A stretch of DNA of 32,000 nt, from positions 720,001 through 752,000 of the forward strand of contig NC_014408.1 of assembly GCF_000145295.1 (NCBI RefSeq). Reading direction: 5' to 3'. Position numbers and translations under genes: made by a program. The DNA is from Methanothermobacter marburgensis str. Marburg. GTDB taxonomy: Archaea; Methanobacteriota; Methanobacteria; Methanobacteriales; Methanothermobacteraceae. Each line of letters begins with the position of its first letter. Position 1 is the first letter of the stretch. The notes beneath the pieces were generated by a model. The model was not told the DNA's origin. It saw nothing but the letters and a program-made list of their open reading frames with translations, and made no database searches. Shown in pieces: positions 10,311 to 31,680 of this stretch.

Positions 10311-10345
10311 AAAAAAAGAATAAAATAGTGGTTTAAAAACCACTA
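10311..10345 (-). terminator. Hairpin plus T-tract terminator for the minus-strand gene, in the convergent gap with the ATPase gene
   Basis: Perfect palindrome TAGTGGTTTAAAAACCACTA at 10326-10345 overlaps the TAG stop. On the minus strand it is followed by TTTTATTCTTTTTTT (10311-10325). Confidence 0.55.
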
Positions 10346-19230: not shown

Positions 19231-19482
19231 CTATTTTTCAAATTTCCCTATAACAGGCTCCCATACCGTGACATCCCCGCTCCTCATAACAGCCCTGAAT
19301 ACACCACCACCATCACCCAGAATCACAAGTCTCACAAACATTGACCTCTCATACTCCCTCTGGAGTACCACGGTCCGGTTTCTCTGAAGGAGTGCGAATG
19401 CAACGATATCTGAATCGGGGTCACCCTCAATAATCCTTGGGGTTCCATTCACCAGGTAAAGCCTCGAAACATTCACACCCAT
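19231..19482 (-). CDS. Hypothetical small protein (83 aa)
   Basis: Clean ORF convergent with pyrG, with coding-like composition. I recognise no motif. Confidence 0.4.
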   Translation of the reverse strand: MGVNVSRLYLVNGTPRIIEGDPDSDIVAFALLQRNRTVVLQREYERSMFVRLVILGDGGGVFRAVMRSGDVTVWEPVIGKFEK

Positions 19483-19991
19483 TGAATTTCACACATCCAC
19501 AACATATAAAAGGTCGTCGCTACTTCTTAGTGGTTCAAGTGAGGTGATGGTACCTGTGGAGTAGAGTGTCTCTGTTCCTGTGAAGTTCCAGCTTCCATAC
19601 TAGAGTATTCAGTAACCCTGTCTTTGAGGCGATCGTGGGTTACAAGGACATAATCCGGTTAGTATGGATTCAACCTTTTGCAGTGCCATCATGGAAGCCA
19701 TGCCTCTCAATGAGGTAATTAGCACGTTCACCCCTTTCAACACCCAGAACGTCCCCAAGGATAATATTACAAGCATGATAACAGATGTTCTTCTATCAAG
19801 TTTTCTAAGATTACTGGTTGATTTTTTGTCCTGACGCAATCTCTCCGTATCCACTGTTGGTTTGTAACCTCTGCATACAATCTGAGATCTCTTCACAAAA
19901 ACTTAAATATCCTCACTCTGAGAATTAATTAAAAACGAGTCCTGAAATATGAGATTCTCTTAACGATGTTTACCATTAGAGGAGTGATTTT

Positions 19992-21140
19992 ATGGTCATG
20001 GAACTGATCTCTGTTTTCATAGCGCTTATCGTTTGTTTCTATGCCTCATACAGTGATATAAAGAGGGGTTTAATACCCAACCGCCTCACGTTTCCTGTTA
20101 TTGGTCTTGGTCTTGCCTTTAACGCCCTGAGGGCCTACACCGAGGCAGACCCCTGGATATTCATATACACCGTCATCTTCACGGCGGGCATATTTGCCCT
20201 TGGCTACATCCTCTGGAGGATGGGTGCCTGGGCCGGTGGTGACGTCAAGCTATTCACGGCCATCACGGCTCTTCTACCCTTCCAGCCATCAATTGTGGAT
20301 TACACCATTGGAGGGGTGGCTTTTCCTGTAACAGCAACTTATCCGTTCCCTTTAACACTTATAATAAACAGCATACTGTCCCTATTACCATTTCTCCTGG
20401 TATACGTCTTCTTCATAATCTACACATCAAGGAGGGACCTCATGGATGAATTCATGGAGCCCCTCAAACAGTATAGGACAAACATGCTCCTTGCCCTTGT
20501 GATCACATCGGCGGTGACGCTCACTTTCATCATAACAGACTTTCTACCCTTCCAGATAATAGTGCTCTCACTCATACTGATATACCTCCTCACCATGGTC
20601 ATATCACGCCTCCCCAACAGGGTGAAGGCTGTGATTGTATCTGTTATAATCGTCTACTCCCTCTACAGGAACTTTGAGTTAACCGTGAGTGGCGTTGTTG
20701 TGCTCTGGGTCTCAATAACAGCCATACAGCTCATAAGAAAACTTTTGACATCAATCACAAGGGAGGCCCTGCAGGATACCATGCACGTGGATGAACTGAG
20801 GGAGGGCATGATACTCGCCCACACACTCTACAGAAAGGGTGATGAATACTACTTTGATGACACCTCATTCACCGACAGATTCAGGACCGCTGCAAGGACA
20901 GGGGATGTCTCCACACTGACCTACAGGGGCGAACCTGTAATTTCGGCAATGGCCGCCGGCCTGGGGGATGAGGAGATCCAGACACTCAGGGACCTTGTGG
21001 ATAGCGGAAAGATCCGAGACGAGTTCCGCATAAGGAGGGGCCTGCCATTTGCCCCCGCAATACTCATCGGGCTTGTGATCTCACTCCTTGTGGGTGACCT
21101 TGCGGTGATACTCTTCAGGGCATTTGACCTGGTATTTTAG
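19992..21140 (+). CDS. Archaeal A24-family prepilin/preflagellin-type aspartic peptidase (EppA/FlaK/PibD-like)
   Basis: 382-aa polytopic membrane protein. The first catalytic Asp is in YSDIKRGLIPN and the second in GAWAGGDVKLF (GxGD-type). The C-terminal conserved GLPFAPAILIG is present. A soluble insert of about 110 aa lies before the last helix. RBS GAGGAGTG is upstream of ATG 19992. Confidence 0.8.
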   Translation: MVMELISVFIALIVCFYASYSDIKRGLIPNRLTFPVIGLGLAFNALRAYTEADPWIFIYTVIFTAGIFALGYILWRMGAWAGGDVKLFTAITALLPFQPSIVDYTIGGVAFPVTATYPFPLTLIINSILSLLPFLLVYVFFIIYTSRRDLMDEFMEPLKQYRTNMLLALVITSAVTLTFIITDFLPFQIIVLSLILIYLLTMVISRLPNRVKAVIVSVIIVYSLYRNFELTVSGVVVLWVSITAIQLIRKLLTSITREALQDTMHVDELREGMILAHTLYRKGDEYYFDDTSFTDRFRTAARTGDVSTLTYRGEPVISAMAAGLGDEEIQTLRDLVDSGKIRDEFRIRRGLPFAPAILIGLVISLLVGDLAVILFRAFDLVF

Positions 21141-21162
21141 CCAAGTATTTAAGAGTGCCTCC

Positions 21163-21186
21163 ACATAAATATCAGCTGAGATATTA
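21163..21186 (+). promoter_or_regulatory. TATA-like cataaata followed by the 14-mer CAGCTGAGATATTA, upstream of the first pilin gene
   Basis: An identical 14-mer recurs at 28046-28059, again just downstream of a TATA-like catattta. See finding. Confidence 0.35.
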
Positions 21187-21205
21187 AATGTTGAAGGTGA
21201 TCCGC

Positions 21206-21637
21206 ATGGATAGCAGGGGACAGGTTTCCCTGGAATATCTCCTACTCATACTCGTGGTCCTCCTTGTGCTGGGTGGCGTGACCATACCCCTCATAGGGAG
21301 CTCAATAGAGGCGAGTACTGATGTATCCAGGGCATCGGATGCCAAGGTGGCTGTTCAGACACTCTCAGATGCAGCAGATATAGTCTATTCCAATGGGCCA
21401 GGGGCAAAGAGAACCGTGAGTTTCTACATCCCCGTTGATGGCACACTCATCTTTGCCAATAACAGCGTGATATTCACAGTTACCTACAGTAACGGTACAA
21501 AGTCAAATATAACAGCCCCCACACAGTACAGCCTCACATCACAGTCAGTGAATGTTCAGAGGGGTTGGTACCGCGCAGTGGTTCAGTGGCCACTTAACTC
21601 CACCACCGTACTCATAACAAATGTAACAAGGACCTAG
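21206..21637 (+). CDS. Class III signal-peptide pilin-like protein (RGQ-type, QxSxExxxL motif)
   Basis: MDSRG|QVSLEYLLLILVVLLVLGGV: a short basic leader, Gly at -1, Gln at +1, Glu at +5, then a hydrophobic helix. Five N-x-S/T sequons in the mature part. ATG 21206 is preferred (AGGTGA 5 nt upstream) over 21188. Confidence 0.75.
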   Translation: MDSRGQVSLEYLLLILVVLLVLGGVTIPLIGSSIEASTDVSRASDAKVAVQTLSDAADIVYSNGPGAKRTVSFYIPVDGTLIFANNSVIFTVTYSNGTKSNITAPTQYSLTSQSVNVQRGWYRAVVQWPLNSTTVLITNVTRT

Positions 21638-21647
21638 GAGGGGTTTA

Positions 21648-22544
21648 ATGAGTTTCTTCTCAAGACTCGGCAGTGCAGTGATAACCCTATTCACACTCAT
21701 TGGAACGGCAATCTTTGGAATCATAAGGCTTCCGGCTAGGATAAGGAGCATAACATCTGATCTCCGGAAGGGAATCTCAGAGGTTGATGTTGACGATGTG
21801 AGAAGAAGGGTCAGGGAAAGGGCTGAGTCAATAGGGGAGCGTATCCCAACCCAGCAGGATGAGGAGGTTCAGGAAATCCTTGAGGAGGCGAGGAACCATG
21901 ACATCAAGTTACCTGAGGACGACGCCCCAATAATCATCAAGGCAGGGCACTTTGACTCAGCAGAGAAGGAAAACGCGGTCCTTAAACTTCAGTTAACAGC
22001 CTCCGGATTCATCGTGCTCTCGATAATATACGTCTTCAATTTCATATCGCTCATTGTATTCATGCCGGCGGCACTTATACTCCTCGGACTCCTCCTGTAC
22101 ATACTCTACCGCCAGATAAGGGTCATGTACCCCGGGGACTTTGAGGCCTACAGGGACTTTTTCCTGATGTACGTGGCTGTTGGGGTCGTTATAATCTTGG
22201 TATCAGGTAATTCTGCCCTCACAATGGCCTTCCCATTTGTATTTTTCCCGGCGCTCACAACACTCCTCTTTGCTGTGCTGGCTGTGGCTGTGGTTTTTCT
22301 GATATTCAGAATAAGATATGTGCGGGACTACACCTTTGGTGAGGTTATAGAGACAGGTGAAAACACGTCCTATGTCAGGGTTGACTATGATATAAGGAGC
22401 AACGTTAAACCAGACGTCTACATCGTTGAGAATGGGGGCTTTGATGTGAAGGTTGGGGATACAGTGAAGCTTGCAGTTGAGGGGTCCGTCATGAGCATGA
22501 GGGGTAACAGGCCTGTTAGAATAACCGGTGTGGAAGGGACGTAA
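21648..22544 (+). CDS. Polytopic membrane protein of unknown function with a charged loop and a C-terminal beta-rich soluble domain
   Basis: 298 aa. One N-terminal helix, a highly charged ~90-aa segment, about 4 further hydrophobic helices, then YTFGEVIETGENTSYVRVDYDI...VKVGDTVKLAVEGS. RBS GGAGGGG; it starts 11 nt after the pilin stop. Confidence 0.6.
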   Translation: MSFFSRLGSAVITLFTLIGTAIFGIIRLPARIRSITSDLRKGISEVDVDDVRRRVRERAESIGERIPTQQDEEVQEILEEARNHDIKLPEDDAPIIIKAGHFDSAEKENAVLKLQLTASGFIVLSIIYVFNFISLIVFMPAALILLGLLLYILYRQIRVMYPGDFEAYRDFFLMYVAVGVVIILVSGNSALTMAFPFVFFPALTTLLFAVLAVAVVFLIFRIRYVRDYTFGEVIETGENTSYVRVDYDIRSNVKPDVYIVENGGFDVKVGDTVKLAVEGSVMSMRGNRPVRITGVEGT

Positions 22545-22618
22545 TCGAATAATAAATAAAAATTAATTTTTTCTAGACATGTACCTGGATGTAACTGGGA
22601 AAAGTGGGGAATAGTTTT

Positions 22619-23002
22619 CTAGACCTGTACAGTGTAGGTCCTATCCCCCAGCCTGACGGTGGTGCTGTTAACCGGCTTTACCCCATTGAGACCTAAGAGG
22701 GACTCAACGGTCCTGTTTATCACAAATGCCCTGTAATTTGAGGGAATGGGCGTGTCAAAGTACACAGTTATAGTTCTGTTGCTTCCACCTGTTATGCTTG
22801 TCTTCGTGACCTTTACTGGCTTCATGGATATATTGGTGTATGCAATCTCAGCGACCGCAGATGAGGCACCCTCCCTTGCAGCGGCGGCTATACTGTTCTC
22901 CTGGGACTGGGGACCTGCAATTGACGAGAATACAAGCACGATTATCACTATGAATGAAACGATCAAGAGAAATTCTGCTGAGATCTGACCCCTGAAGTCC
23001 AT
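22619..23002 (-). CDS. Class III signal-peptide pilin-like protein (RGQ-type)
   Basis: MDFRG|QISAEFLLIVSFIVIIVLVF. GGAGG lies 9 nt upstream on the minus strand. Four N-x-S/T sequons. Confidence 0.75.
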   Translation of the reverse strand: MDFRGQISAEFLLIVSFIVIIVLVFSSIAGPQSQENSIAAAAREGASSAVAEIAYTNISMKPVKVTKTSITGGSNRTITVYFDTPIPSNYRAFVINRTVESLLGLNGVKPVNSTTVRLGDRTYTVQV

Positions 23003-23091
23003 CTATATCATCCTCCTACTCATATATGAATGATCAAGTATATATAACATTCCTGGCATAAATAATCACATATAAAGAGAAGGGGATAAAA
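23003..23091. promoter_or_regulatory. AT-rich divergent intergenic region with several TATA-like elements (ttatatatac, cataaata, acatataaag)
   Basis: An 89-bp gap between divergently oriented pilin-like genes. TATA-like strings are visible, but no transcription start can be assigned from sequence. Confidence 0.35.
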
Positions 23092-23976
23092 TTGAGGGGT
23101 ATACTGTCTGATAAGAGGGGTTTTGCATTTTCACTTGACATACTTCTGGCTCTCATACCATTAACCATCATGCTGGGCATACTTGCCGCTGATATGGACA
23201 ACATAATGTATTTAACACAGAGCACAATCTATCAGAGCGCCCTTGACCGCCAGGCATCTGACATAGCAGACGCCCTCGTTGAAACCTCTGGTGTCCCCCC
23301 AGACTGGGAGCAGCTCGGAAACCCCCAGAGCATAGGACTTGCAAGGTATGACCCTGTGAGAAACATGCCCCAGAAGAACTACCTCTCCCCGGCAAAGATC
23401 GCGGGGATTAACACAACCAACATGGGGGAACTTGTGGGTCCGGAGTATGGTTACTATATAAACATAAGCACCACCGAGGGTCTCACTGTCAGAACCCTTG
23501 GAACCCTTAACACAAGTGCCCCTGACATTGCAAGGGTTGAACGTTACGTCCTCACCACCAAGGTTGAGCGTGTGGGTTCAATAGAGGGCCTCATAAGGGA
23601 TGCTGGGCAGCCAAGGACATACACAACCAACTTCCCAACCAATGAAGCATATCTTAGAATCTACGACTACTGGGTTCTTGTAATCAACAGGGGATACGAT
23701 TCAGCATTCGTGGATGTTAACAACAACCGTGTTGTGCCCCCAAACGAGATAAACAGGCACATCACAGAGATCAAGAAACAGATAAATGAGACCTACCTCT
23801 ACAATAACACAACATTCAGGGATAACATACTGAGTGTCAGAACCCAGAGTAACCCCGGGGCATCAATGGATGTCTACATCCTTGCAGCGCCCAAAGGCAC
23901 CCCCCCAGATCAGATAACACTTGATAACGTGAGGTTAAGGCCAGCCAGATTTGTCCTGTACCTCTGGCTAAAATGA
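23092..23976 (+). CDS. Pilin-like protein with a class III-type N-terminus (KRG|FAFSLDILLALIPL)
   Basis: 294 aa, TTG start. A basic leader ending in RG is followed by a hydrophobic helix with Asp at +6. About 6 N-x-S/T sequons. It is the first gene of a tightly packed five-gene run. Confidence 0.6.
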   Translation: MRGILSDKRGFAFSLDILLALIPLTIMLGILAADMDNIMYLTQSTIYQSALDRQASDIADALVETSGVPPDWEQLGNPQSIGLARYDPVRNMPQKNYLSPAKIAGINTTNMGELVGPEYGYYINISTTEGLTVRTLGTLNTSAPDIARVERYVLTTKVERVGSIEGLIRDAGQPRTYTTNFPTNEAYLRIYDYWVLVINRGYDSAFVDVNNNRVVPPNEINRHITEIKKQINETYLYNNTTFRDNILSVRTQSNPGASMDVYILAAPKGTPPDQITLDNVRLRPARFVLYLWLK

Positions 23977-24003
23977 TAATTTACCTGATGCAGGTGATCA
24001 GTT

Positions 24004-26076
24004 ATGATCCGTGATTTTGGCGATGATGAGGGAGGATTCATATTCACAACCGATGCCGTCCTGGCCCTGGTTGTTGTATTCATATTCACAGCATCAATTG
24101 TGACATACTTTGCGCTTCCAAATTATATGGGGTCTGACCATCAGCACCTTGAGGCCCTGGCAGCGGACGCCCTGGATGTCATGAGACAGGACGGGACACT
24201 CTACTCTGCAGCCGCCATGTACTCCAGGAACAACACGGCAGGCGCAGAGAACCTGATAAGCTCTGAGCTGAGATCGCTGCTACCACCCGGAGTTGGTTAT
24301 GAGTTCAAAATGGGCCCGTACCCGACCCTCAGGAATGACAGCGGGATACTCGTATCAAGGGATACCGCATCCAGGGCCATTGTGATTTCAGGTCCTGAGG
24401 AGGGCTGGCTTGGACGTGCATGGTACAAGATGGAGGAGGTCACACTGGAGGACCAGGAAATAAACTCCACAACAACCGTGTGGAACTTCCATAACTGGCT
24501 CTCCAATTTCTGGAACAGTCTTTATTCAAGACCATACTGGGGGTACCAGACAGCACCCCGGAACATTACCTTCTCGGTCCCATCAAGTAACATCCACTGG
24601 GGTAAATTCCTCCTTGGCTCATGTAACCGGCGGAACAAGGCATCATACGGGGCCAACGTGGTGATAAACAACGTCCCCCATATTGTCAGAAACGATAGTT
24701 TCACCTTCCTTAACCTCAGACCCGGAACAACAAGGGAACTCATGTACAATTATCAGGGGAACATAACGTCACTTGTGGGCGGCTCAAACAGGTTCTATGT
24801 CCAGTTCACCAACATGACCACAACGGGAACCCGGGATTACGATTTGCCATGGTTTTCAATAATAGCAAACTATACAAACACAATAAAGGTGCCGAAGGGT
24901 ATCATTACCCGCACATATGCCTTCAATGACGCTGCTGGTCTCGCAGTACCCAGCTTAACGAGACTGGACAAAAATGGAACCATGGGTTACGGTCGTATAT
25001 ATGACCTCAACACGGGTACGGTTACCAACCTCGACACAAGGAGGGTGATAGCATGGAACAGTATGGTGAGACAGAACCATTTATACTCCAATGGTCTGCC
25101 ATTCGTAATTGATAACGTTAATGGGGGTAGCGCAGATGGATGTGCGGTTAGCGTCACGCAGGACATCCCCATACCCCCAGGTTCAAGGATACTCGATGCC
25201 TATACAGTTGTCAACCCATATGGTGGTGTTGACAATGCCCTTGTGGAGGTATGGAATGGTACCGCCTGGAATGTGGCTTTCTGTTCGTTTGATTATGGTG
25301 GAGTAGACTACAGTTCGGTGAGTGACGGTTACGGTAACGTGCCAGGCACAATATACATCAGGGACTACCTGAGGTCCGGGCAGACCAACAAGGTCCGGGT
25401 GACAATATGGGACAACGTCCCTGGCCAGGACTACGACCTGGTGGGCCTTGTTGACTGCTACTCCACGGTCTCCTACACATCATTACCCATCCAGTGGAAC
25501 AACTACCCCTTTGCAAGCTACCAGAACTCAACCACTGTATCAGCACCTGTAAGGCAGTTTGCCATTGGAACAGATGCCAAGAAGGTCCTGCTCTTCGTGG
25601 GGGCCGGACTTGACACCAAAACCATTAAGGTTGAGGTTAAAAACTCAACCAGCGCCTGGACCCAGCTCTACAATGGCCCTGTGCCCTTCTCACTGGATAT
25701 AGGGGCCATTGATGTTGCAGGAAGTAAGATATTCACAACGGGCGGGACCCCTGGGAACTACAGTGCAAGGCCTGGAACCTATAATATACGTGTCACCATA
25801 AATTCAGGGCAGGGCTGGGAGTCAGGGGACTCCAATGCTGAGATATATTCAGGTACACGTGTTGCTGTCATATACCCGAAATTCCTTGCAAACATGTGGG
25901 CCACAGAATATGCCAACGACGCGTACACGGCCCAGGCCCTTGCAAGGCAGGAGCTCATAGAGATGCTCCAGGCATCAGGTTACAACATAGACCCATCACT
26001 TATAAGGACCGAGGCCCTCTACACGGGGGACATGCCCAATTCATTACCTGTTAGACTAACGCTGTGGAGGAGTTAG
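24004..26076 (+). CDS. Large (690 aa) pilin-like/adhesin-like surface protein with an atypical acidic leader
   Basis: N-terminus MIRDFGDDEGG|FIFTTDAVLALVVVFIFTASIV. 13 N-x-S/T sequons counted by eye. Rich in N/Y/G/T beta-type sequence with no further hydrophobic helix. AGGTGA lies 6 nt upstream of the ATG. Confidence 0.6.
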   Translation: MIRDFGDDEGGFIFTTDAVLALVVVFIFTASIVTYFALPNYMGSDHQHLEALAADALDVMRQDGTLYSAAAMYSRNNTAGAENLISSELRSLLPPGVGYEFKMGPYPTLRNDSGILVSRDTASRAIVISGPEEGWLGRAWYKMEEVTLEDQEINSTTTVWNFHNWLSNFWNSLYSRPYWGYQTAPRNITFSVPSSNIHWGKFLLGSCNRRNKASYGANVVINNVPHIVRNDSFTFLNLRPGTTRELMYNYQGNITSLVGGSNRFYVQFTNMTTTGTRDYDLPWFSIIANYTNTIKVPKGIITRTYAFNDAAGLAVPSLTRLDKNGTMGYGRIYDLNTGTVTNLDTRRVIAWNSMVRQNHLYSNGLPFVIDNVNGGSADGCAVSVTQDIPIPPGSRILDAYTVVNPYGGVDNALVEVWNGTAWNVAFCSFDYGGVDYSSVSDGYGNVPGTIYIRDYLRSGQTNKVRVTIWDNVPGQDYDLVGLVDCYSTVSYTSLPIQWNNYPFASYQNSTTVSAPVRQFAIGTDAKKVLLFVGAGLDTKTIKVEVKNSTSAWTQLYNGPVPFSLDIGAIDVAGSKIFTTGGTPGNYSARPGTYNIRVTINSGQGWESGDSNAEIYSGTRVAVIYPKFLANMWATEYANDAYTAQALARQELIEMLQASGYNIDPSLIRTEALYTGDMPNSLPVRLTLWRS

Positions 26077-26078
26077 AT

Positions 26079-27128
26079 ATGGGCATAATCCGTGACGAGG
26101 ATGGATACGCATTCACACCACTTGCAGTACTCCTCTTTATACCAGTAATTGTAATCGCCATATCCTATGGAAGCATAGCCAATGAGGCCAACATGCTGGC
26201 AGCCCTTACAATGGGTGGAGATGTCACCGTAACGGTGGTTGGCTCAATATACACGACAGTTGAGAAGGCCGCGGCGGATGCGGGTCGTAACGCGGCATAC
26301 AATGCATCAAGGAATGTTATAGATAACGCTGAGTTCTTCCCGGCCGGCACCAGCAAGGCCAACATAACAAGGAATATCGTTGATGCCATAAACGCCAACG
26401 TCATAAACACATCACAGGAGCTTGAAAGGCAGACAGGCCGCCAGATCTACATCAACAATATACCCATAACCAATTACACCAACGCAACATTCACCACATC
26501 AGACGTTACAATAACACAGAATGACCCCTTCGGGTTCTCAGTGGAGATACGCGGCGGCATACCTGTGAAGGTTGTTCAGAAGGACCAGGTATATGAGTTC
26601 CGGCTGCCACAGGTGTCATCCTATGTGAGCCTTGAGGGTATAGAGGACCCCTACATATGGATAAACACCAAGTTCCGTGCAAGTAACGTGATCTACAAGT
26701 ATCCCTACTATGCAAGTAACGGTACATATGCAGACTACAGGCTCAATGAGAGCGTTGACAGGGACGGGAGGCTTCAGAACCTCTGGTACTGCCTCAACGG
26801 GACCGACAACCCCAGTAACATAACACCAAGACCCTACTACTTTGTGGACCCGTATGGCCTTTCATTCTTTGACCGCCTTGAGAACAGGTCATCATCAGCG
26901 GACCCCCAGTACACCCGCATGAGCACCTTCATAATAGGGGACCCCCTACTTGAGGACCACAACGGCAACCAGTACATCTCAAAGGTTGACAGGGAGTACT
27001 TCCTTGGAATCCCTGGGACAACCATCAAGGTGAAGAATAATGTCGTTTATGACCCCCTTGGATATCCATTCTGCCTCTCAGCAACCTACAAAAACCTGCT
27101 GGGTCTTGCAGCAAACAATTACAGTTAG
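26079..27128 (+). CDS. Pilin-like surface protein with an atypical acidic leader
   Basis: MGIIRDEDG|YAFTPLAVLLFIPVIVIAIS. About 10 N-x-S/T sequons. ATG 26079 is preferred (GGAGGAG 6 nt upstream, 2 nt after the upstream stop) over GTG 26064. Confidence 0.6.
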   Translation: MGIIRDEDGYAFTPLAVLLFIPVIVIAISYGSIANEANMLAALTMGGDVTVTVVGSIYTTVEKAAADAGRNAAYNASRNVIDNAEFFPAGTSKANITRNIVDAINANVINTSQELERQTGRQIYINNIPITNYTNATFTTSDVTITQNDPFGFSVEIRGGIPVKVVQKDQVYEFRLPQVSSYVSLEGIEDPYIWINTKFRASNVIYKYPYYASNGTYADYRLNESVDRDGRLQNLWYCLNGTDNPSNITPRPYYFVDPYGLSFFDRLENRSSSADPQYTRMSTFIIGDPLLEDHNGNQYISKVDREYFLGIPGTTIKVKNNVVYDPLGYPFCLSATYKNLLGLAANNYS

Positions 27129-27137
27129 GGTGATTCA

Positions 27138-27533
27138 ATGGATGATGCTGGTGTTTTAAGCATAGACTTCCTCTTCGCAACACTGATAGCTCTCATCATA
27201 ATCGCGGGGATGGTAAGCATGGTGGACAGTGAACTCTCAAGGACACAGGCGGGTGAACTTGGGGAGGCCAGGATGATGGGTGAACGTGTTGTGGGTGCGG
27301 TGAATGCAGCCTACACCAATGGTCCCGGTTATGCTGTTAACCTCACATTAACCTCTGATTTTCCATACACAATTGAGGTGAGGAATGGCAGGGTCACCGT
27401 GTTCTATAAGTCAAGCACCATCAGACTCAACCTTATACCCAAGGTCAACGTGACCACGACCAACATGACTCCAGGATTCACATACACTGTGAGGAACCAG
27501 AACGGCACCATAACCATAACTAAACTCACCTGA
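27138..27533 (+). CDS. Small pilin-like protein with an atypical acidic leader
   Basis: MDDAG|VLSIDFLFATLIALIIIAGMV. 131 aa with 4 sequons. GGGTGA is upstream. Confidence 0.55.
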   Translation: MDDAGVLSIDFLFATLIALIIIAGMVSMVDSELSRTQAGELGEARMMGERVVGAVNAAYTNGPGYAVNLTLTSDFPYTIEVRNGRVTVFYKSSTIRLNLIPKVNVTTTNMTPGFTYTVRNQNGTITITKLT

Positions 27534-27561
27534 GCAATCAAAAAAGTCCGGAGGATCTCTC

Positions 27562-27963
27562 TTGTTCAGTGACCTTAGATGGGAGTATAAGGCCCTTGCA
27601 ATCATTGCCATCATCGCTGTTCTTGTAACGGTGTACTCATACAGCTCATTCAATCAGGGGGAGAGGGTGAGGCTCTCTGATTCAACACAAATCCAACCCC
27701 AGCCACAGCCTGTACCTGTGAGCGTACCCAACATGACAGATAACAGAACAAACACAACTGAGAATGTTACGGCCGAGGAGGCCAGGCAGATAGCCGCAGA
27801 GTCCGGTTACACAGCAGGACAGCCCACAAGGGGCTCAATAAACCTGAACGGCACCAATGTGGAGGTATGGATTGTCCCCCTCCAGAGGAGTGGAAGGACA
27901 GTTAAGGAGGTCTATGTGAGTATGGAGGGCGGACAGATTGTGGGAAGCAGGGAATTCACCTGA
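27562..27963 (+). CDS. N-terminally anchored protein with a PepSY-like C-terminal domain
   Basis: 133 aa. A single helix (ALAIIAIIAVLVTVYSY), a PQPQPVPV linker, a glycosylation-sequon cluster (NMTDNRTNTTENVT), then AEEARQIAAE...VEVWIVPL...VKEVYVSMEGGQIVG, which resembles PepSY. TTG start with GGAGGA 6 nt upstream. Confidence 0.5.
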   Translation: MFSDLRWEYKALAIIAIIAVLVTVYSYSSFNQGERVRLSDSTQIQPQPQPVPVSVPNMTDNRTNTTENVTAEEARQIAAESGYTAGQPTRGSINLNGTNVEVWIVPLQRSGRTVKEVYVSMEGGQIVGSREFT

Positions 27964-28032
27964 TTAAGCAGTTCCGCGGAATCCTTATTTCATCTCTCGG
28001 GGCAGGGAATTCACCTGCAAGCAATAATCACA

Positions 28033-28059
28033 ACATATTTAAGGCCAGCTGAGATATTA
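28033..28059 (+). promoter_or_regulatory. TATA-like catattta followed by the 14-mer CAGCTGAGATATTA (second copy)
   Basis: The exact 14-mer is shared with 21173-21186. It lies 39-48 nt upstream of the next CDS. Confidence 0.35.
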
Positions 28060-28097
28060 TTGGTAAGTGATTAAAGCGCCCCTCAAAAGGATTCACG

Positions 28098-28901
28098 GTG
28101 AATAAAATGGATGTTCTGAGTGTAATCGTAATGCTGGCCCTATTTTTGCTTCTACTTGCATTCATATTCTCCGCTGGCCTCATGACGCCTGTAATTGGCA
28201 GCAAGAACATTATATTCGTGATATTCATAGGCTTCATTGCAGGGACCATTGGCGGTGCATTCCTTATCTCACCGGTTTACGATGAGATCCCTGAAATTGC
28301 AAGGAGCATATACCTCTCAACATCTGGAGCCACAGAAACCGTAACCGCGGATGTCTCAACAGATACCGATATAGAGAGGCTCAAAGAGGATCTTGCCTCC
28401 CAGGAGGGGGTTGTGGATGTCCACTCTGAGGGGATCGTGATAAAGACAGATAAATTCACAGAGGAACGTAAAAGAATAATAGAGGATAAAATAGCGGTTA
28501 TAGACTCCAATATAACCTCATGGAATGTTTACACGAATGGCACCATAATCCTGCAGGTTAAAAGGGGATACAACCCTGTGAATGCCCTTGAGAACCTTGC
28601 GAAGTGGCTCATGTACACCGGAGGTATAAACACAAGGTACAGCACGGTTAAGCTGGTGGTGGAGGTGAAGCCAGCAAATGTCGATGCAGTCGTCTCCTAC
28701 CTTGAGGCGAGGGACATCGTTGTAACAGGTGTCAGGGGCCCTTCAGAGGATAAGGTGGCTGAACTCAGGAGGTTTTTACCGGCTAAATCCAATATAGTAC
28801 TCTTCTGTGGTGTTCTTGGAGTGATAACGGGTCTTGCAGGTGTTTTCATAGATTCCATCATGGGTTCTTTCAGGAAGATTTACAGGAAGTACAGGGGGTG
28901 A
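28098..28901 (+). CDS. Membrane protein of unknown function (two N-terminal helices, ~170-aa soluble region, C-terminal helix)
   Basis: 267 aa. The start is GTG 28098 or ATG 28107. Its stop lies 3 nt before the next start, so it is probably co-transcribed with the Dph6-like gene. Confidence 0.55.
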   Translation: MNKMDVLSVIVMLALFLLLLAFIFSAGLMTPVIGSKNIIFVIFIGFIAGTIGGAFLISPVYDEIPEIARSIYLSTSGATETVTADVSTDTDIERLKEDLASQEGVVDVHSEGIVIKTDKFTEERKRIIEDKIAVIDSNITSWNVYTNGTIILQVKRGYNPVNALENLAKWLMYTGGINTRYSTVKLVVEVKPANVDAVVSYLEARDIVVTGVRGPSEDKVAELRRFLPAKSNIVLFCGVLGVITGLAGVFIDSIMGSFRKIYRKYRG

Positions 28902-28904
28902 AGC

Positions 28905-29585
28905 ATGAGGTCCGCGGTTCTATATTCAGGGGGTAAGGACAGTACAATGGCCCTCTACCATGCACTCCAGGAGTCGGAGGTTCGATTTCTTGTTTCAATG
29001 GTATCAGATAACCCCGAGTCCCACATGTACCATGTGCCAAACATCCAACTCACATCCCTCCTTGCAGAGGCCCTTGGAATACCCCTCATTGAATCCAGGA
29101 CTGAGGGTGTTGAGGAGGAGGAGGTTGAGGACCTTGCAGAGACTCTTTCCATGCTGAAGGAGAGGGGTGTGGATGCTGTTTACTCAGGGGCACTTTACTC
29201 TGAGTATCAGAGGTCAAGGATAGATGAGGTCTGCAGGGGCCTTGGCCTTAAGTCCGTGGCACCCCTCTGGCACAGGGACCCGCTGGATTATATGGAGGAG
29301 GTGGTTGACCTTGGATTCAGGGTCATGGTAACAGCGGTTGCAGCTGAGGGCCTGGATGAGTCATGGCTTGGGAGGATTGTTGACAGGAGGATGATCTCTG
29401 AACTCGCTGATCTCAGTGAGAGGTATGGTATAAACCCCGCCTTTGAAGGTGGTGAGGCTGAGACCCTTGTCCTTGATGGTCCCATATTTAAGAAGAGACT
29501 TGAGATAATTGAATATGAAAAGAAGTGGTTCTTTGATAATGGATTCATGGATATAAAGAGGGCTGTGCTTGTTGATAAGGATTAG
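28905..29585 (+). CDS. MJ0570-family ATP pyrophosphatase (diphthine-ammonia ligase, Dph6-like)
   Basis: N-terminal PP-loop AVLYSGGKDST; ~226 aa; EGGEAETLVLDGP motif near the C-terminus, typical of this family. Confidence 0.75.
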   Translation: MRSAVLYSGGKDSTMALYHALQESEVRFLVSMVSDNPESHMYHVPNIQLTSLLAEALGIPLIESRTEGVEEEEVEDLAETLSMLKERGVDAVYSGALYSEYQRSRIDEVCRGLGLKSVAPLWHRDPLDYMEEVVDLGFRVMVTAVAAEGLDESWLGRIVDRRMISELADLSERYGINPAFEGGEAETLVLDGPIFKKRLEIIEYEKKWFFDNGFMDIKRAVLVDKD

Positions 29586-29633
29586 TTTTATTTTTTGTTA
29601 GTTTATCTGGAGTGCTTGTTGATAGGATTGCTT

Positions 29634-30044
29634 TTATTTTTCATCCATACTTCCCTCCATCTCCCCGGATACATCAGGTGCAAGCCAGTCAATGATCCCC
29701 ATTATATCATCTGATTCAATCTCCACCATTATATCCCCAAGGGGGGTGATGGGCTCCTCGAGAACATTGACACGTCCTATGAGTGCCGCCTGCTTGTTTA
29801 TATAAATTCGGGTCAATTTGCCCCTCATGTTCTTAATTAGGATTCCCCGGGCGGTTAACCGTATCCTCCGCCTTTCAAGGGCCTCCCTGAGTTCACTGAG
29901 ACTCTCAGTATTGCCTTCACCCTTCAGGAAATCTCCATAACCTTCAATTTCAAGGTCTGGAAATACGTTCATAACGGCCTCCCTGACCTTTTCAGGGTCC
30001 TCTGTTGCTCGCACCGGAACCTCAACCCTCACAGTATCCATCAT
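29634..30044 (-). CDS. UPF0201-family protein (predicted RNA-binding, COG1931-like)
   Basis: MMDTVRVEVPVRATEDPEKV... matches the UPF0201 archaeal family as I recall it. ATG 30044 gives an ATGA overlap with the upstream stop; the track start is 30059. Confidence 0.55.
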   Translation of the reverse strand: MMDTVRVEVPVRATEDPEKVREAVMNVFPDLEIEGYGDFLKGEGNTESLSELREALERRRIRLTARGILIKNMRGKLTRIYINKQAALIGRVNVLEEPITPLGDIMVEIESDDIMGIIDWLAPDVSGEMEGSMDEK

Positions 30045-30577
30045 CTTCCCTCCTCGCATAGTTTCCTCAGTATCTTTTTCGCCTGCTTCTTTATCTTCCA
30101 GATGGGGCCCTCATTGACTATCATGTAATCTGAGGTTGCTATTACATTCCCTATTCCGAATCCAAGTTCCCTTTCATCCCTTTCAATGAATTCACTGTAA
30201 CTTGATGAATCATCCTCTCTTCTGCGCTTTTTGAGGCGTTTGAATCTTGTCTTTCGCGTTGAGAATACAGATATCACCCTGAATCCAGGGAAGTTCTCCC
30301 TGAATATCTCGACCTCGTGGGGGCTCCTTATTCCCTCTATGAGGAACCTCTCAGATTTTGCCTTCTGTATCCTTTCAACACACTTCTCGGCAACAACGTA
30401 TTCGCCGTATTCCTCTCTGAGGCGGACAGCCGTTACACCTGGTTCCTCACCGCGTTTTCTGGCTTCATCCCTTATAACGTCACCCATCCTTATAACCTGA
30501 AATCCCATGGACTCGGCGACCCTTGATACGACACCCTTACCTGCTCCTGGCATCCCTGAAACTCCAATAACCACCAT
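30041..30577 (-). CDS. UPF0200-family P-loop nucleotide kinase (adenylate/dephospho-CoA-kinase-like fold)
   Basis: Walker A motif GVSGMPGAGKG at the N-terminus; 178 aa. It shows the conserved archaeal pairing with UPF0201. Confidence 0.65.
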   Translation of the reverse strand: MVVIGVSGMPGAGKGVVSRVAESMGFQVIRMGDVIRDEARKRGEEPGVTAVRLREEYGEYVVAEKCVERIQKAKSERFLIEGIRSPHEVEIFRENFPGFRVISVFSTRKTRFKRLKKRRREDDSSSYSEFIERDERELGFGIGNVIATSDYMIVNEGPIWKIKKQAKKILRKLCEEGR

Positions 30578-31464: not shown

Positions 31465-31680
31465 ATGGAAGAGGAAGTTGAGATCAAACGAAAACCCAGA
31501 AAGCCAGAGTATGGGAAAAGCCTCTGGGGGATCTACCTTGGGTCAATCCTGGTGATAATAGGTGTTATATGGTTTGCCTTTGCATCAGGCCTTATACCAC
31601 CCCAGTACTCAAGGTTCTGGCCCCAGGCCCTGCTGGTTATTATCGGGGTTCTTATAATCATAAAATCCATCAGGAACTGA
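31465..31680 (+). CDS. Small two-helix membrane protein (71 aa)
   Basis: Charged N-terminus, then two hydrophobic segments. AGGAGGAGG RBS upstream. Confidence 0.5.

What the first reader, a model, noticed from the sequence alone, without database searches (positions are those of the whole stretch)
19992..28901. Compact type-IV-pilus-like surface-structure locus: peptidase plus seven candidate substrates, but no ATPase or platform gene
About 9 kb holds an A24 aspartic prepilin peptidase (two catalytic Asp motifs visible) and two textbook RGQ|xSxE class III signal-peptide pilins (21206-21637 plus strand, 22619-23002 minus strand). A tightly packed run of four further pilin-like genes, a PepSY-like anchored protein and two unknown membrane proteins complete it.

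Almost every predicted extracellular part is dense in N-x-S/T sequons, consistent with archaeal surface glycoproteins. No PilB/FlaI-type ATPase and no PilC/FlaJ-type platform gene lies within the window.

As I recall, the Methanococcus maripaludis epd pilus locus also keeps its ATPase and platform genes elsewhere, so a functional filament is plausible. The only surface appendage I know to be described in Methanothermobacter-type organisms is the Mth60 fimbria, whose subunit is not of this kind. This locus may therefore encode an uncharacterised appendage or pilin-dependent secretion or adhesion device.
Basis: partly seen in the sequence, partly recalled or inferred. Interest (0 to 1): 0.75.

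Follow-up and report, generated by a model that had tools for sequence, protein, structure and literature searches.

The report
Epd-like archaeal pilus accessory locus
This stretch of the Methanothermobacter marburgensis genome holds the signal peptidase, six minor pilins and membrane helper proteins of a type IV pilus of a kind already catalogued in methanogens, so it is real and well formed but not a new kind of machine.

Summary
Window 19992-28901 encodes a long-form A24 prepilin peptidase and six proteins with conserved class III signal-peptide N-termini, not seven. It also encodes a DUF2101 membrane protein, a membrane-anchored PepSY protein and a three-TM protein. No ATPase or platform gene lies in the window or within 10 kb beyond it.

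The window is M. marburgensis Marburg (CP069376). The locus matches the 'clade 1 / system 1' (Epd-like) archaeal type IV pilus. Makarova et al. 2016 catalogued this system for this very genome, with one clade-1 ATPase listed elsewhere. It was studied genetically in Methanococcus maripaludis, where ATPase, platform and major pilin also lie outside the locus.

The gene set is syntenic in about 60 Methanobacteriaceae loci and under purifying selection (dN/dS 0.03-0.20). Distant EppA relatives sit next to a T2SSE ATPase, two T2SSF genes and small Flp-like pilins.

Most likely it supplies the processing enzyme, the priming or tip pilins and accessory membrane parts of a thin pilus used for adhesion and possibly DNA uptake. 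It is experimentally uncharacterised in this genus, but not novel in kind. I could not locate the ATPase in this genome with the tools; that point rests on the literature.

The parts
19992..21140 (+). EppA-type (long-form) A24 prepilin peptidase, 382 aa
   Evidence: Pfam Peptidase_A24 2.7e-17 and Arc_PepC 5.8e-37. NCBIfam EppA model is aligned over its full length (5-331 of 334), but at 47.6 bits against a cut-off of 450. D22 and D84 are invariant. At least 7 strongly hydrophobic segments. dN/dS 0.17.
21188..21637 (+). pil1: canonical class III pilin (MDSRG|QVSLEYLL), in the position of EpdA; the start is 21188 or 21206
   Evidence: Class_IIIsignal 5.7e-8, above the gathering score. The motif MDx[KR]G|Q[VI]SxEYLL is conserved in 70 loci. 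Homologous to the pilin that follows EppA in the distant locus L088 (E 1e-13). 5 sequons.
21648..22544 (+). DUF2101 polytopic membrane protein (COG4025, which Makarova's table lists as arCOG05786)
   Evidence: Pfam DUF2101 5.7e-72. 5 hydrophobic segments. Adjacent to eppA in 79 of 84 loci. [quoted passage not shown]
22619..23002 (-). pil2: canonical class III pilin (MDFRG|QISAEFLL), divergently transcribed
   Evidence: Class_IIIsignal 3.4e-4 here. Orthologues reach Class_IIIsignal 2.7e-7 and TadE 3.3e-5, above the gathering score. Present in about 30 loci. Weakly similar to the third pilin after EppA in L088 (1e-5).
23003..23091 (.). 89-bp AT-rich divergent intergenic region between pil2 and the p294 operon (putative promoters)
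   Evidence: Read directly. TATA-like ATATATAA/CATATAAA boxes. GGAGG-like ribosome sites lie before both start codons. Promoter function is inferred only.
23092..23976 (+). p294: pilin-like protein with a ~260-aa globular part (MRGILSDKRG|FAFSLD)
   Evidence: Orthologues read DSxG|QxFSLDLLLALIP. One N-terminal TM and 6 sequons. No Pfam hit. dN/dS 0.07.
24004..26076 (+). p690: large modular pilin-like surface protein (..DDEGG|FIFTTDA)
   Evidence: Orthologues read MDDKG|FIFTTDAxLAL. Full-length homologues at 45-95% identity occur across Methanobacteriales, including Methanothermus, and all are named 'hypothetical'. AF2 model: pLDDT 83, pTM 0.71, with an N-terminal helix at 16-62 followed by beta-sandwich domains. 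Only generic jelly-roll matches in the PDB, TM below 0.2. 13 sequons.
26064..27128 (+). p354: pilin-like protein without an acidic residue near +5 (..RDEDG|YAFTPL)
   Evidence: Orthologues read MDEKG|YxFTPL with Pro at +5. One TM and 11 sequons. Overlaps p690 by 13 nt if the GTG start at 26064 is used; the KEPCO-1 gene call begins one codon after the p690 stop.
27138..27533 (+). p131: small pilin (MDDAG|VLSIDFLF)
   Evidence: Orthologues read LDxKG|QASAELIF. Homologous to the second pilin after EppA in L088 (5e-9 over 150 aa). An orthologue hits TadE weakly.
27562..27963 (+). p133: N-terminally anchored PepSY-domain protein with a sequon-rich linker; not a pilin
   Evidence: 10 of 26 orthologues hit Pfam PepSY, best 1.9e-7; the window protein itself is below threshold. 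Conserved WEKKAL anchor with no Gly cleavage motif.
28098..28901 (+). p267: membrane protein with 2 N-terminal TMs, an extracytoplasmic double ferredoxin-like domain and a C-terminal TM
   Evidence: AF2 model pLDDT 81. Foldseek gives only weak ferredoxin-like matches and MacB, FtsX and Wzc-type hits. Found with eppA in 62 loci, and kept even where the pilins are absent (L059). No Pfam hit.
28905..29585 (+). Diphthamide-synthase-family PP-loop ATPase, linked to the locus (role in the pilus uncertain)
   Evidence: PF01902 2e-104. Starts 3 nt after p267. Stays next to p267 when the block is inverted in other genera. Makarova et al. note this family (arCOG00035) as co-transcribed with clade 1 loci.

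Best explanation
What it is. This is the Methanobacteriales version of the archaeal 'clade 1 / system 1' (Epd-like, Tad-related) type IV pilus accessory locus.

Proposed mechanism, step by step:
1. Six prepilins are inserted in the membrane by their class III signal peptides. [inferred from sequence]
2. The EppA-type aspartic peptidase (D22, D84) removes the short leader after the conserved Gly. [inferred by homology; cleavage not shown]
3. The exposed parts are N-glycosylated. [inferred from 9-fold sequon enrichment]
4. The three small canonical pilins (pil1, pil2, p131) and the three larger ones (p294, p690, p354) act as minor pilins.
5. These minor pilins prime assembly and sit at the tip or base of the filament.
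6. The 690-aa modular pilin acts as the likely binding module. [inferred by analogy with M. maripaludis minor pilins, which are essential for piliation, and with bacterial minor-pilin complexes]
7. The filament body is built from small major pilins by one CpaF-like ATPase and two TadC-like platform proteins, all encoded elsewhere in the genome. [literature for this genome; not verified with tools]
8. DUF2101, p267 and the PepSY protein are membrane accessory parts. [role unknown]

Likely output: a thin adhesive pilus, possibly also the DNA-uptake pilus behind the natural transformability reported for M. marburgensis.
For: Family assignments.

Conserved cleavage motifs in orthologues. Class_IIIsignal, TadE and TadF hits among orthologues.

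Synteny. pyrG-eppA-pil1-DUF2101 and the block p294-p690-p354-p131-p133-p267-dph recur in about 60 of 84 Methanobacteriaceae loci. All locus genes are under purifying selection.

Link to a complete machine. Distant members of the same peptidase family lie directly beside T2SSE, two T2SSF genes and small Flp-like class III pilins. They are followed by homologues of pil1, p131 and pil2.

Genome identity. The window is M. marburgensis Marburg.

Literature:
- Makarova 2016 describes exactly this gene content for clade 1 and lists one clade-1 ATPase (YP_003849202.1, 523 aa) for this genome.
- The M. maripaludis Epd locus has the same split organisation, and its genes are needed for piliation.
- Those genes are also needed for natural transformation in M. 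maripaludis.
- Natural competence has been reported for M. marburgensis.

The p690 model shows a pilin-type N-terminal helix plus beta-sandwich modules.
Against: - No filament of this type has been reported in Methanothermobacter; I found no such paper.
- The ATPase, platform and major pilin of this genome were not located with tools here.
- In this strain four of the six pilins lack Gln at +1, which is important for EppA cleavage in M. maripaludis. Their processing is therefore uncertain.
- The peptidase scores far below the NCBIfam EppA equivalog cut-off (47.6 against 450).
- According to Makarova's tables the minor pilins fall in arCOGs other than those of EpdA-C. Orthology to individual Epd proteins is therefore not shown.
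- I could not retrieve M. maripaludis sequences for a direct comparison.
Confidence: 0.8

Rival explanations
1. The pilin-like proteins do not form an extended pilus. Instead they form a short pseudopilus or a surface-anchored assembly, like a type II secretion pseudopilus or the Sulfolobus bindosome. This would export or display proteins through the pseudomurein wall.
For: - No pilus has been seen in this genus.
- Three of the six pilins carry large globular parts.
- A PepSY protein and a MacB/FtsX-like ectodomain protein are in the operon.
- The locus holds no small major pilin.
Against: - None of these proteins gave a significant Pfam hit to a substrate-binding or enzyme domain.
- In distant relatives the same peptidase and pilin set is joined to several small Flp-like major pilins, which is typical of true filaments.
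- The homologous M. maripaludis system makes real pili.
Confidence: 0.08
2. The locus is the assembly and processing machinery for Mth60-type fimbriae. This follows Makarova et al. 2016, who listed MTH60 (arCOG10348) as the major pilin of the clade 1 system in Methanothermobacter.
For: Makarova et al. 2016 make this assignment. The two ORFs I take to be Mth60-like paralogues lie upstream of the eha operon, roughly 27 kb from eppA (my estimate from the KEPCO-1 locus L085).
Against: - The two ORFs at that position have Sec-type signal peptides (for example ..LLTNPVSGASA|VQE). They have no short leader-Gly-Gln...Glu motif.
- Kaster et al. 2011 list MTH60 as a CDS specific to M. thermautotrophicus, with only two low-similarity CDS in M. 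marburgensis. Yet M. marburgensis keeps this locus intact and under selection.
- Recombinant Mth60 self-assembles, and the fimbriae are treated as non-T4P (Fink 2023).
Confidence: 0.03
3. The locus is a decaying remnant of an ancestral pilus system, split from its ATPase and no longer functional.
For: The ATPase and platform have been separated from the locus in all 84 Methanobacteriales loci examined. Complete loci in distant archaea keep them together. Some species lack p690, p354 or all nearby pilins (L017, L022, L059).
Against: - All ORFs are intact.
- dN/dS is 0.03-0.20 for every gene.
- The catalytic Asp residues and the cleavage motifs are conserved across the order.
- The split organisation is also that of the functional M. 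maripaludis system.
Confidence: 0.05

Closest known systems
Archaeal type IV pilus 'clade 1' (Makarova, Koonin and Albers 2016), called 'TFF system 1' in the 2026 bioRxiv preprint 10.64898/2026.04.22.720090
   Same: - Long-form EppA-type peptidase.
- At least five class III minor pilins.
- Two extra membrane proteins.
- A linked diphthamide-synthase-family ATPase.
- Found in Methanobacteriales, Methanococcales, Thermococcales and DPANN archaea.
- This very genome is in the 2016 census.
   Different: Nothing essential; this is a member. The published descriptions are computational and give no gene-by-gene account or experiment for Methanothermobacter.
Methanococcus maripaludis Epd pilus locus (mmp0231-0241: eppA, epdA-C and others)
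   Same: - The peptidase gene is followed directly by a pilin with RGQ...E.
- It is a multi-gene accessory operon.
- ATPase (mmp0040), two platform genes (mmp0038/39) and the major pilin (mmp1685) are encoded elsewhere.
- Substrates have Gln at +1 and an acidic residue at +5.
   Different: - The peptidase scores only 47.6 bits on the EppA equivalog model, against a cut-off of 450.
- The minor pilins are in other arCOGs.
- The p294-p690-p354 block, the PepSY protein and p267 have no shown counterpart.
- The cell wall is pseudomurein.
- No filament or phenotype is known.
Bacterial Tad/Flp pilus
   Same: - In the distant relatives (L087, L088) the ATPase is CpaF-like, with the RMRPDRIIVGEVRG motif, there are two TadB/C-like platform genes and there are very small Flp-like major pilins.
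- Orthologues of pil2 and p131 give TadE/TadF-type N-terminal hits.
- The peptidase has no methyltransferase domain.
   Different: - No secretin or outer-membrane parts.
- The peptidase has extra TM segments and the archaeal Arc_PepC domain.
- The pilins are glycoprotein-like and three are large.
Bacterial minor-pilin priming and tip complexes (GspH-I-J-K, FimU-PilV-W-X, ComGD-GG) and modular pilins such as Streptococcus sanguinis PilB
   Same: - A run of four consecutive pilin genes.
- One lacks the acidic residue at +5 (p354), as GspK does (my own knowledge).
- One is a pilin module fused to large binding-type domains (p690), as in S. sanguinis PilB (PMC8179133, abstract seen).
   Different: There is no detectable sequence or global fold similarity. 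The analogy is functional and untested.
Mth60 fimbriae of M. thermautotrophicus
   Same: A surface appendage of the same genus, with an adhesion function.
   Different: The two ORFs upstream of eha that I take to be the Mth60-like paralogues carry Sec-type signals. Recombinant Mth60 self-assembles. MTH60 is listed as specific to M. thermautotrophicus. No such gene lies in this locus.

Membership tests
Archaeal T4P clade 1 / TFF system 1 (Epd-like) | Long-form A24 prepilin peptidase (EppA type, extra TM segments plus the Arc_PepC domain) | tested here: met
   PF01478 and PF06819 both hit. The NCBIfam EppA model is aligned end to end. D22 and D84 are invariant. There are at least 7 strong TM segments.
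Archaeal T4P clade 1 / TFF system 1 (Epd-like) | Several pilins with class III signal peptides (Gly at -1, hydrophobic helix; EppA substrates have Gln at +1 and an acidic residue at +5) | tested here: met
   Six genes qualify. pil1 and pil2 are fully canonical. p131 has Asp at +5, and its orthologues have Gln at +1. p294, p690 and p354 are non-canonical at +1 and +5.
Archaeal T4P clade 1 / TFF system 1 (Epd-like) | A clade-1 (CpaF-like) T2SSE ATPase in the genome | not testable with these tools
   Absent from the window and from 10 kb on either side. Literature: Makarova Tables S2-S4 list YP_003849202.1 (523 aa, arCOG01819) for M. marburgensis Marburg. In distant archaea, relatives of the peptidase sit next to T2SSE.
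Archaeal T4P clade 1 / TFF system 1 (Epd-like) | Two TadC-like (T2SSF) platform genes | not testable with these tools
   Not in the window. Two T2SSF genes flank the peptidase homologue in L087, L088 and L089. Their presence in this genome was not checked.
Archaeal T4P clade 1 / TFF system 1 (Epd-like) | Small (~55-70 aa) Flp/EpdE-type major pilin (arCOG06620) | tested here: not met
   None lies in the 32-kb window. Makarova et al. report a member (MTH1102) elsewhere in the sister species. As in M. maripaludis, the major pilin is expected outside the locus, so this does not exclude membership.
Archaeal T4P clade 1 / TFF system 1 (Epd-like) | COG4025/DUF2101 membrane protein and a linked diphthamide-synthase-family ATPase | tested here: met
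   DUF2101 at 5.7e-72 and PF01902 at 2e-104. Both are syntenic with eppA across the order.
EppA equivalog (NCBIfam NF053826, the M. maripaludis type) | Score at or above the curated cut-off of 450 bits | tested here: not met
   47.6 bits. It is a homologue with the same architecture, not an equivalog.
Archaellum | FlaK-type peptidase, archaellins and FlaH/I/J | tested here: not met
   The FlaK model scores 27 bits against a cut-off of 330. No archaellin family and no T2SSE or T2SSF (FlaI/FlaJ-type) family was hit among the ORFs scanned in the window.
Mth60 fimbriae | An Mth60-family subunit with a Sec-type signal peptide | tested here: not met
   No such gene lies in the locus. The two ORFs upstream of eha that I take to be the Mth60-like paralogues have Sec signals, unlike the six pilins here.

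The most novel reading that the evidence does not exclude
The locus provides the processing enzyme and the tip or priming complex of a competence (DNA-uptake) pilus. This pilus would underlie the natural transformability reported decades ago for M. marburgensis. The modular 690-aa pilin would be the binding module. DUF2101, p267 and the PepSY protein would form a Methanobacteriales-specific accessory complex that lets a type IV filament pass a pseudomurein wall.

A hint in favour: in one uncultured archaeon (L089) the same system lies directly beside an OB-fold gene and a TctA gene. Genes with those two annotations (OB-fold MMJJ_13020, TctA-family MMJJ_13030) were found essential for transformation in M. 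maripaludis; homology to them was not tested.
Probability: 0.25. Interest if true: 0.6.

Novelty: already known. Interest (0 to 1): 0.28.

Why it matters
As a discovery it adds little. The system type, its split organisation and its presence in this very genome are published.

Its practical value is as a well-delimited target in a model methanogen that now has genetic tools:
- Deleting the peptidase or the distant ATPase would test whether Methanothermobacter makes a second, type IV appendage besides Mth60 fimbriae.
- The same mutants would test whether that appendage mediates the old, never explained natural competence of M. marburgensis.

The gene-by-gene anatomy given here goes somewhat beyond the published census and gives concrete hypotheses:
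- three canonical and three non-canonical pilins;
- one pilin without the +5 acidic residue;
- a modular 690-aa pilin;
- a PepSY protein;
- a protein with a double ferredoxin-like ectodomain;
- an invariant eppA-DUF2101-p267-dph core.

Tried and rejected
1. Reaching the M. maripaludis or Thermococcus loci for a direct protein comparison.
- The single genome-contig scan with an EppA alignment returned only Methanobacteriales.
- The representative search listed 150 distant relatives. None of the 20 tested with NCBIfam was a true EppA equivalog; the maximum was 60 bits against a cut-off of 450. Those I could name were DPANN or unnamed MAGs.
- Orthology to EpdA-C and EpdF therefore stays untested.

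2. Locating the ATPase and platform in this genome.
- They are not in the window, not within 10 kb beyond it, and not within 10 kb of eppA in any of 84 loci.
- I had no seed close enough to Methanobacteriales, and no protein search was left.
- A last look-up (P0241) gave a 2-kb contig.

4. DUF2341 / PilY-like adhesin for p690. No such Pfam hit in p690 or in 34 homologues.

5. Rfam found nothing in the window, including the 509-bp region upstream of eppA.

6. Expression data. The supplements of Casini 2023 are not held. Fonseca 2020 is not held.

7. The transglutaminase at 10343-12076 as part of the system. It is not conserved near eppA outside Methanothermobacter, so I left it out.

Full report
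WHAT IS THERE

- **Peptidase, 19992-21140(+).** It encodes a 382-aa A24 peptidase: Peptidase_A24 at 2.7e-17, plus the archaeal C-terminal domain Arc_PepC at 5.8e-37. The NCBIfam model for the M. maripaludis pilin peptidase EppA aligns over its whole length (5-331 of 334), but at 47.6 bits against a cut-off of 450. It is therefore a homologue with the same architecture, not an equivalog. In an alignment of 12 homologues the two catalytic aspartates, D22 and D84 (in AGGD), are invariant. A crude hydropathy scan gives at least seven strong membrane segments, consistent with the 'long form' of the enzyme.
- **Six pilin-like genes.** Each begins with a short charged leader, a glycine and a hydrophobic helix:

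| Gene | Coordinates | N-terminus |
|---|---|---|
| pil1 | 21188/21206-21637 (+) | MDSRG\|QVSLE |
| pil2 | 22619-23002 (-) | MDFRG\|QISAE |
| p294 | 23092-23976 (+) | KRG\|FAFSLD |
| p690 | 24004-26076 (+) | DEGG\|FIFTTD |
| p354 | 26064-27128 (+) | DEDG\|YAFTPL |
| p131 | 27138-27533 (+) | DDAG\|VLSID |

- **Not chance.** A six-frame scan of all 32 kb for this pattern finds these six genes. Its only other hits are three evident false positives: the N-terminus of the P-type ATPase ORF, a piece inside the peptidase, and a 71-aa ORF at 31465-31680.
- **Three further membrane proteins.** They are DUF2101 (21648-22544, 5.7e-72), a single-anchor protein (27562-27963) and a three-TM protein (28098-28901).
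- **Sequons.** N-x-S/T sequons occur at 2.56 per 100 residues in the pilin-like set. The 17 cytoplasmic proteins of the window have 0.28, and composition predicts 1.18.
- **No ATPase or platform.** None of the window's long ORFs that I scanned hits T2SSE or T2SSF.

Corrections to the finding:
- There are six candidate substrates, not seven. The anchored protein has no Gly motif.
- Its PepSY nature is real at the family level: 10 of 26 orthologues hit Pfam PepSY, best 1.9e-7, although the window copy is sub-threshold.

WHERE IT COMES FROM

- The peptidase sequence is found exactly in NCBI record CP069376.1.
- Casini et al. 2023 name that record as the reference genome of Methanothermobacter marburgensis Marburg.
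- In the syntenic strain KEPCO-1, the 10 kb beyond the window ends hold the eha hydrogenase operon on one side and uvrABC on the other. Again there is no ATPase or platform gene.

CONSERVATION

A scan of one genome per species with an EppA alignment returned 80 loci, all Methanobacteriales. tblastn of the window proteins against them shows two blocks:
- pyrG-eppA-pil1-DUF2101, which is essentially fixed.
- p294-p690-p354-p131-p133-p267-dph, present in about 60 loci. It is either co-oriented, as here, or inverted as one piece together with the neighbouring RNA-binding-protein gene.

Further points:
- pil2 occurs in about 30 loci.
- Some species lack p690 and p354 (L017, L022). One keeps only eppA-DUF2101-p267-dph (L059). 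That quartet is therefore the invariant core.
- The N-terminal motifs are conserved across the order:

| Gene | Conserved motif in orthologues |
|---|---|
| pil1 | MDx[KR]G\|Q[VI]SxEYLL |
| pil2 | MDx[KR]G\|QISxEF |
| p131 | LDxKG\|QASAEL |
| p294 | DSxG\|QxFSLD |
| p690 | MDDKG\|FIFTTDA |
| p354 | MDEKG\|YxFTPL, with Pro rather than an acidic residue at +5 |

- Among 78 orthologues of pil2, p131, p294 and p354, 17 hit Class_IIIsignal, 5 hit TadE and 1 hits TadF. A pil2 orthologue passes the gathering score for both Class_IIIsignal and TadE.
- Against a 96%-identical Methanothermobacter MAG (L005), every gene has dN/dS between 0.03 and 0.20. The locus is maintained by selection.
- No ORF with a T2SSE-type Walker A motif lies within 10 kb of eppA in any of the 84 loci. 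Separation from the motor genes is the rule in this order.

LINK TO A COMPLETE MACHINE

An exhaustive HMMER search of cluster representatives found about 340 relatives of the peptidase at E below 1e-10. Three with long contigs were inspected.

- **L087 (Diapherotrites MAG) and L088 (metagenome contig).** The order is T2SSE ATPase, two T2SSF genes, several 53-62-aa class III pilins (MDSKGQGALEYLLLIG...), the EppA-like peptidase, then two or three 120-170-aa pilins.
- **L089.** It shows the same order after a truncated ATPase.
- **Homology to the window.** The first pilin after the peptidase matches pil1 (E 1e-13 and 1e-12). The second in L088 matches p131 (5e-9 over 150 residues). The third matches pil2 weakly (1e-5).
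- **ATPase type.** The ATPases carry the CpaF/TadA-type motif RMRPDRIIVGEVRG.

This ties the window's peptidase and small pilins, by homology and gene order, to a complete Tad-like type IV filament system.

WHAT IS ALREADY KNOWN

*The 2016 census.* Makarova, Koonin and Albers 2016 (PMC4858521) define 'clade 1' type IV pili of Methanococci, Methanobacteria and Thermococci. According to that paper, clade 1 has:
- a dedicated 9-TM peptidase, EppA (arCOG02300);
- at least five minor pilins per locus;
- a diphthamide-synthase-family PP-loop ATPase that is probably co-transcribed;
- two TadC genes and one ATPase.

Their tables list exactly one secretion ATPase for M. marburgensis Marburg, of clade 1 (gi 304314055, YP_003849202.1, 523 aa).

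*The M. maripaludis system.* The 11-gene locus mmp0231-0241 lacks its ATPase (mmp0040), its platform genes (mmp0038/39) and its major pilin (mmp1685). EppA substrates have Gln at +1 and an acidic residue at +5. Most genes of the locus are needed for piliation (PMC4187195). Epd genes are also needed for natural transformation (PMC10133366).

*The 2026 preprint.* It reclassifies the group as 'system 1' and notes its presence in Methanobacteriales.

I found no experimental work on such pili in Methanothermobacter.

THE MTH60 QUESTION

- Makarova et al. listed MTH60 as the major pilin of this system.
- Kaster et al. 2011 list MTH60 as a CDS specific to M. thermautotrophicus, with only two low-similarity CDS in M. 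marburgensis.
- Fink et al. 2023 treat Mth60 fimbriae as assembled by a non-T4P route, because the recombinant protein self-assembles.
- I translated the two ORFs just upstream of the eha operon, which I take to be those distant paralogues. Both have ordinary Sec-type signal peptides and no class III motif.

STRUCTURE MODELS

- **p690.** Modelled with 35 homologues: pLDDT 83, pTM 0.71. It has a 47-residue N-terminal helix (16-62), as in type IV pilins, followed by several beta-sandwich domains. PDB matches are only generic jelly-roll folds with TM below 0.2. No DUF2341 (PilY-like) signal appears in it or in 34 homologues. It looks like a modular pilin: a pilin module carrying large, probably binding, domains.
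- **p267.** Modelled with 18 sequences: pLDDT 81. It has two N-terminal helices, an extracytoplasmic domain built from two ferredoxin-like units (80-226) and a C-terminal helix. PDB matches are weak: a designed ferredoxin-in-ferredoxin protein, and MacB, FtsX and Wzc ectodomains. Ferredoxin-like ectodomains are also typical of bacterial PilN/PilO and GspL/GspM (my own knowledge). A role as an alignment or wall-spanning accessory is possible but unproven.

MOST LIKELY MECHANISM

Shown:
- gene content;
- conserved motifs;
- synteny;
- purifying selection;
- homology to parts of complete systems.

Inferred:
1. There are probably three transcription units. The first is eppA-pil1-DUF2101 (gaps of 65 and 10 nt). 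The second is pil2 alone, read from an 89-bp AT-rich divergent region. The third runs from p294 to dph (gaps of 27, -13, 9, 28, 134 and 3 nt).
2. The peptidase cleaves the prepilins after Gly on the cytoplasmic face.
3. The exposed parts are N-glycosylated.
4. The six pilins act as minor pilins that prime and cap a filament. p354, which lacks an acidic +5 residue as GspK does, would sit at the very tip. p690 would be the binding module.
5. Small major pilins are polymerised by the distant ATPase and the two platform proteins.
6. The output is adhesion and perhaps DNA uptake. Natural competence of M. marburgensis is on record.

Weak points:
- In this strain p294, p690, p354 and p131 lack Gln at +1.
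- The motor genes were not seen by me.
- No filament has been reported.

VERDICT

However, the system is a catalogued member of a known family in a genome that was part of the published census. Interest is modest. Its main value is as a defined genetic target for testing a second appendage and the basis of competence in Methanothermobacter.

Noticed in passing
L089:5851-7384 (Logan ERR15087765 contig 826959): In this uncultured archaeon the system-1 pilus cluster is two T2SSF genes, small pilins, the EppA-like peptidase and three small proteins. It is followed directly by an OB-fold gene (PF01336, 26.9 bits, at the gathering score) and a TctA gene (PF01970, 2.1e-43). Genes with those two annotations (MMJJ_13020/13030) were reported as essential for natural transformation in M. 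maripaludis. I did not see this adjacency mentioned in the passages I searched. The contig also shares the apgM and asnB neighbours with the window.
   Followed up: partly
window 23092-30059, compared with L011, L023, L024, L028 and others: In roughly half of the Methanobacteriaceae loci the whole block from p294 to the dph gene, plus the RNA-binding-protein gene, is inverted as one unit relative to pyrG-eppA-pil1-DUF2101. pil2 is mostly missing in the inverted arrangement.
   Followed up: partly
window 19992-29585 compared with L005: Synonymous divergence from a 96%-identical Methanothermobacter MAG is very uneven. It is 0.32 for pil2, 0.20 for p690 and 0.18 for p133. It is about 0.01 for pyrG and dph and 0 for p267. 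This suggests recombination or allele exchange in the surface-exposed genes.
   Followed up: no
window 22569-22584 and 22615-22630: A 16-nt direct repeat, TTTTCTAGAC(A/C)TGTAC, matching at 15 of 16 positions. The second copy covers the last codons and the stop codon of pil2 on the minus strand. The first copy lies just after the DUF2101 stop, next to a T6 run. It may be a duplicated 3' end or a shared terminator region.
   Followed up: no
window 19483-19991: A 509-bp stretch without a convincing ORF upstream of eppA, with low G+C (0.44 in that kilobase) and no Rfam match. In L005 the homologue of the 83-aa ORF lies about 2.3 kb upstream of eppA, against about 0.5 kb here.
   Followed up: partly
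window 10343-12076 (-): A protein with four pseudomurein-binding repeats and a transglutaminase core. Makarova et al. note a link between a transglutaminase family (arCOG09555) and clade 1 pili in Methanobacteriales. Here it lies 8 kb from eppA, and it is not found near eppA outside Methanothermobacter.
   Followed up: partly
L087:3714-6824 and L088:4402-7455: The pilus ATPase of the Diapherotrites MAG carries an intein (Intein_splicing and LAGLIDADG_3). The ATPase of L088 is a 1017-aa tandem duplication of two complete T2SSE units, about 50% identical to the L087 extein.
   Followed up: no
L085:2263-3523 (-), just upstream of the eha operon in strain KEPCO-1: Two paralogous ~170-aa secreted proteins, probably the Mth60-like CDS MTBMA_c07820/30 of Kaster et al. 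2011. They have Sec-type signal peptides and long stretches of identical sequence in their first ~125 mature residues.
   Followed up: partly
window 19231-19482 (-): An 83-aa ORF, called as a gene in the NCBI record, with three N-x-S/T sequons, no TM segment and no Pfam hit. tblastn finds it in only three of the fetched loci: L001 (this genome), L005, and a weak 36% match in L026.
   Followed up: no
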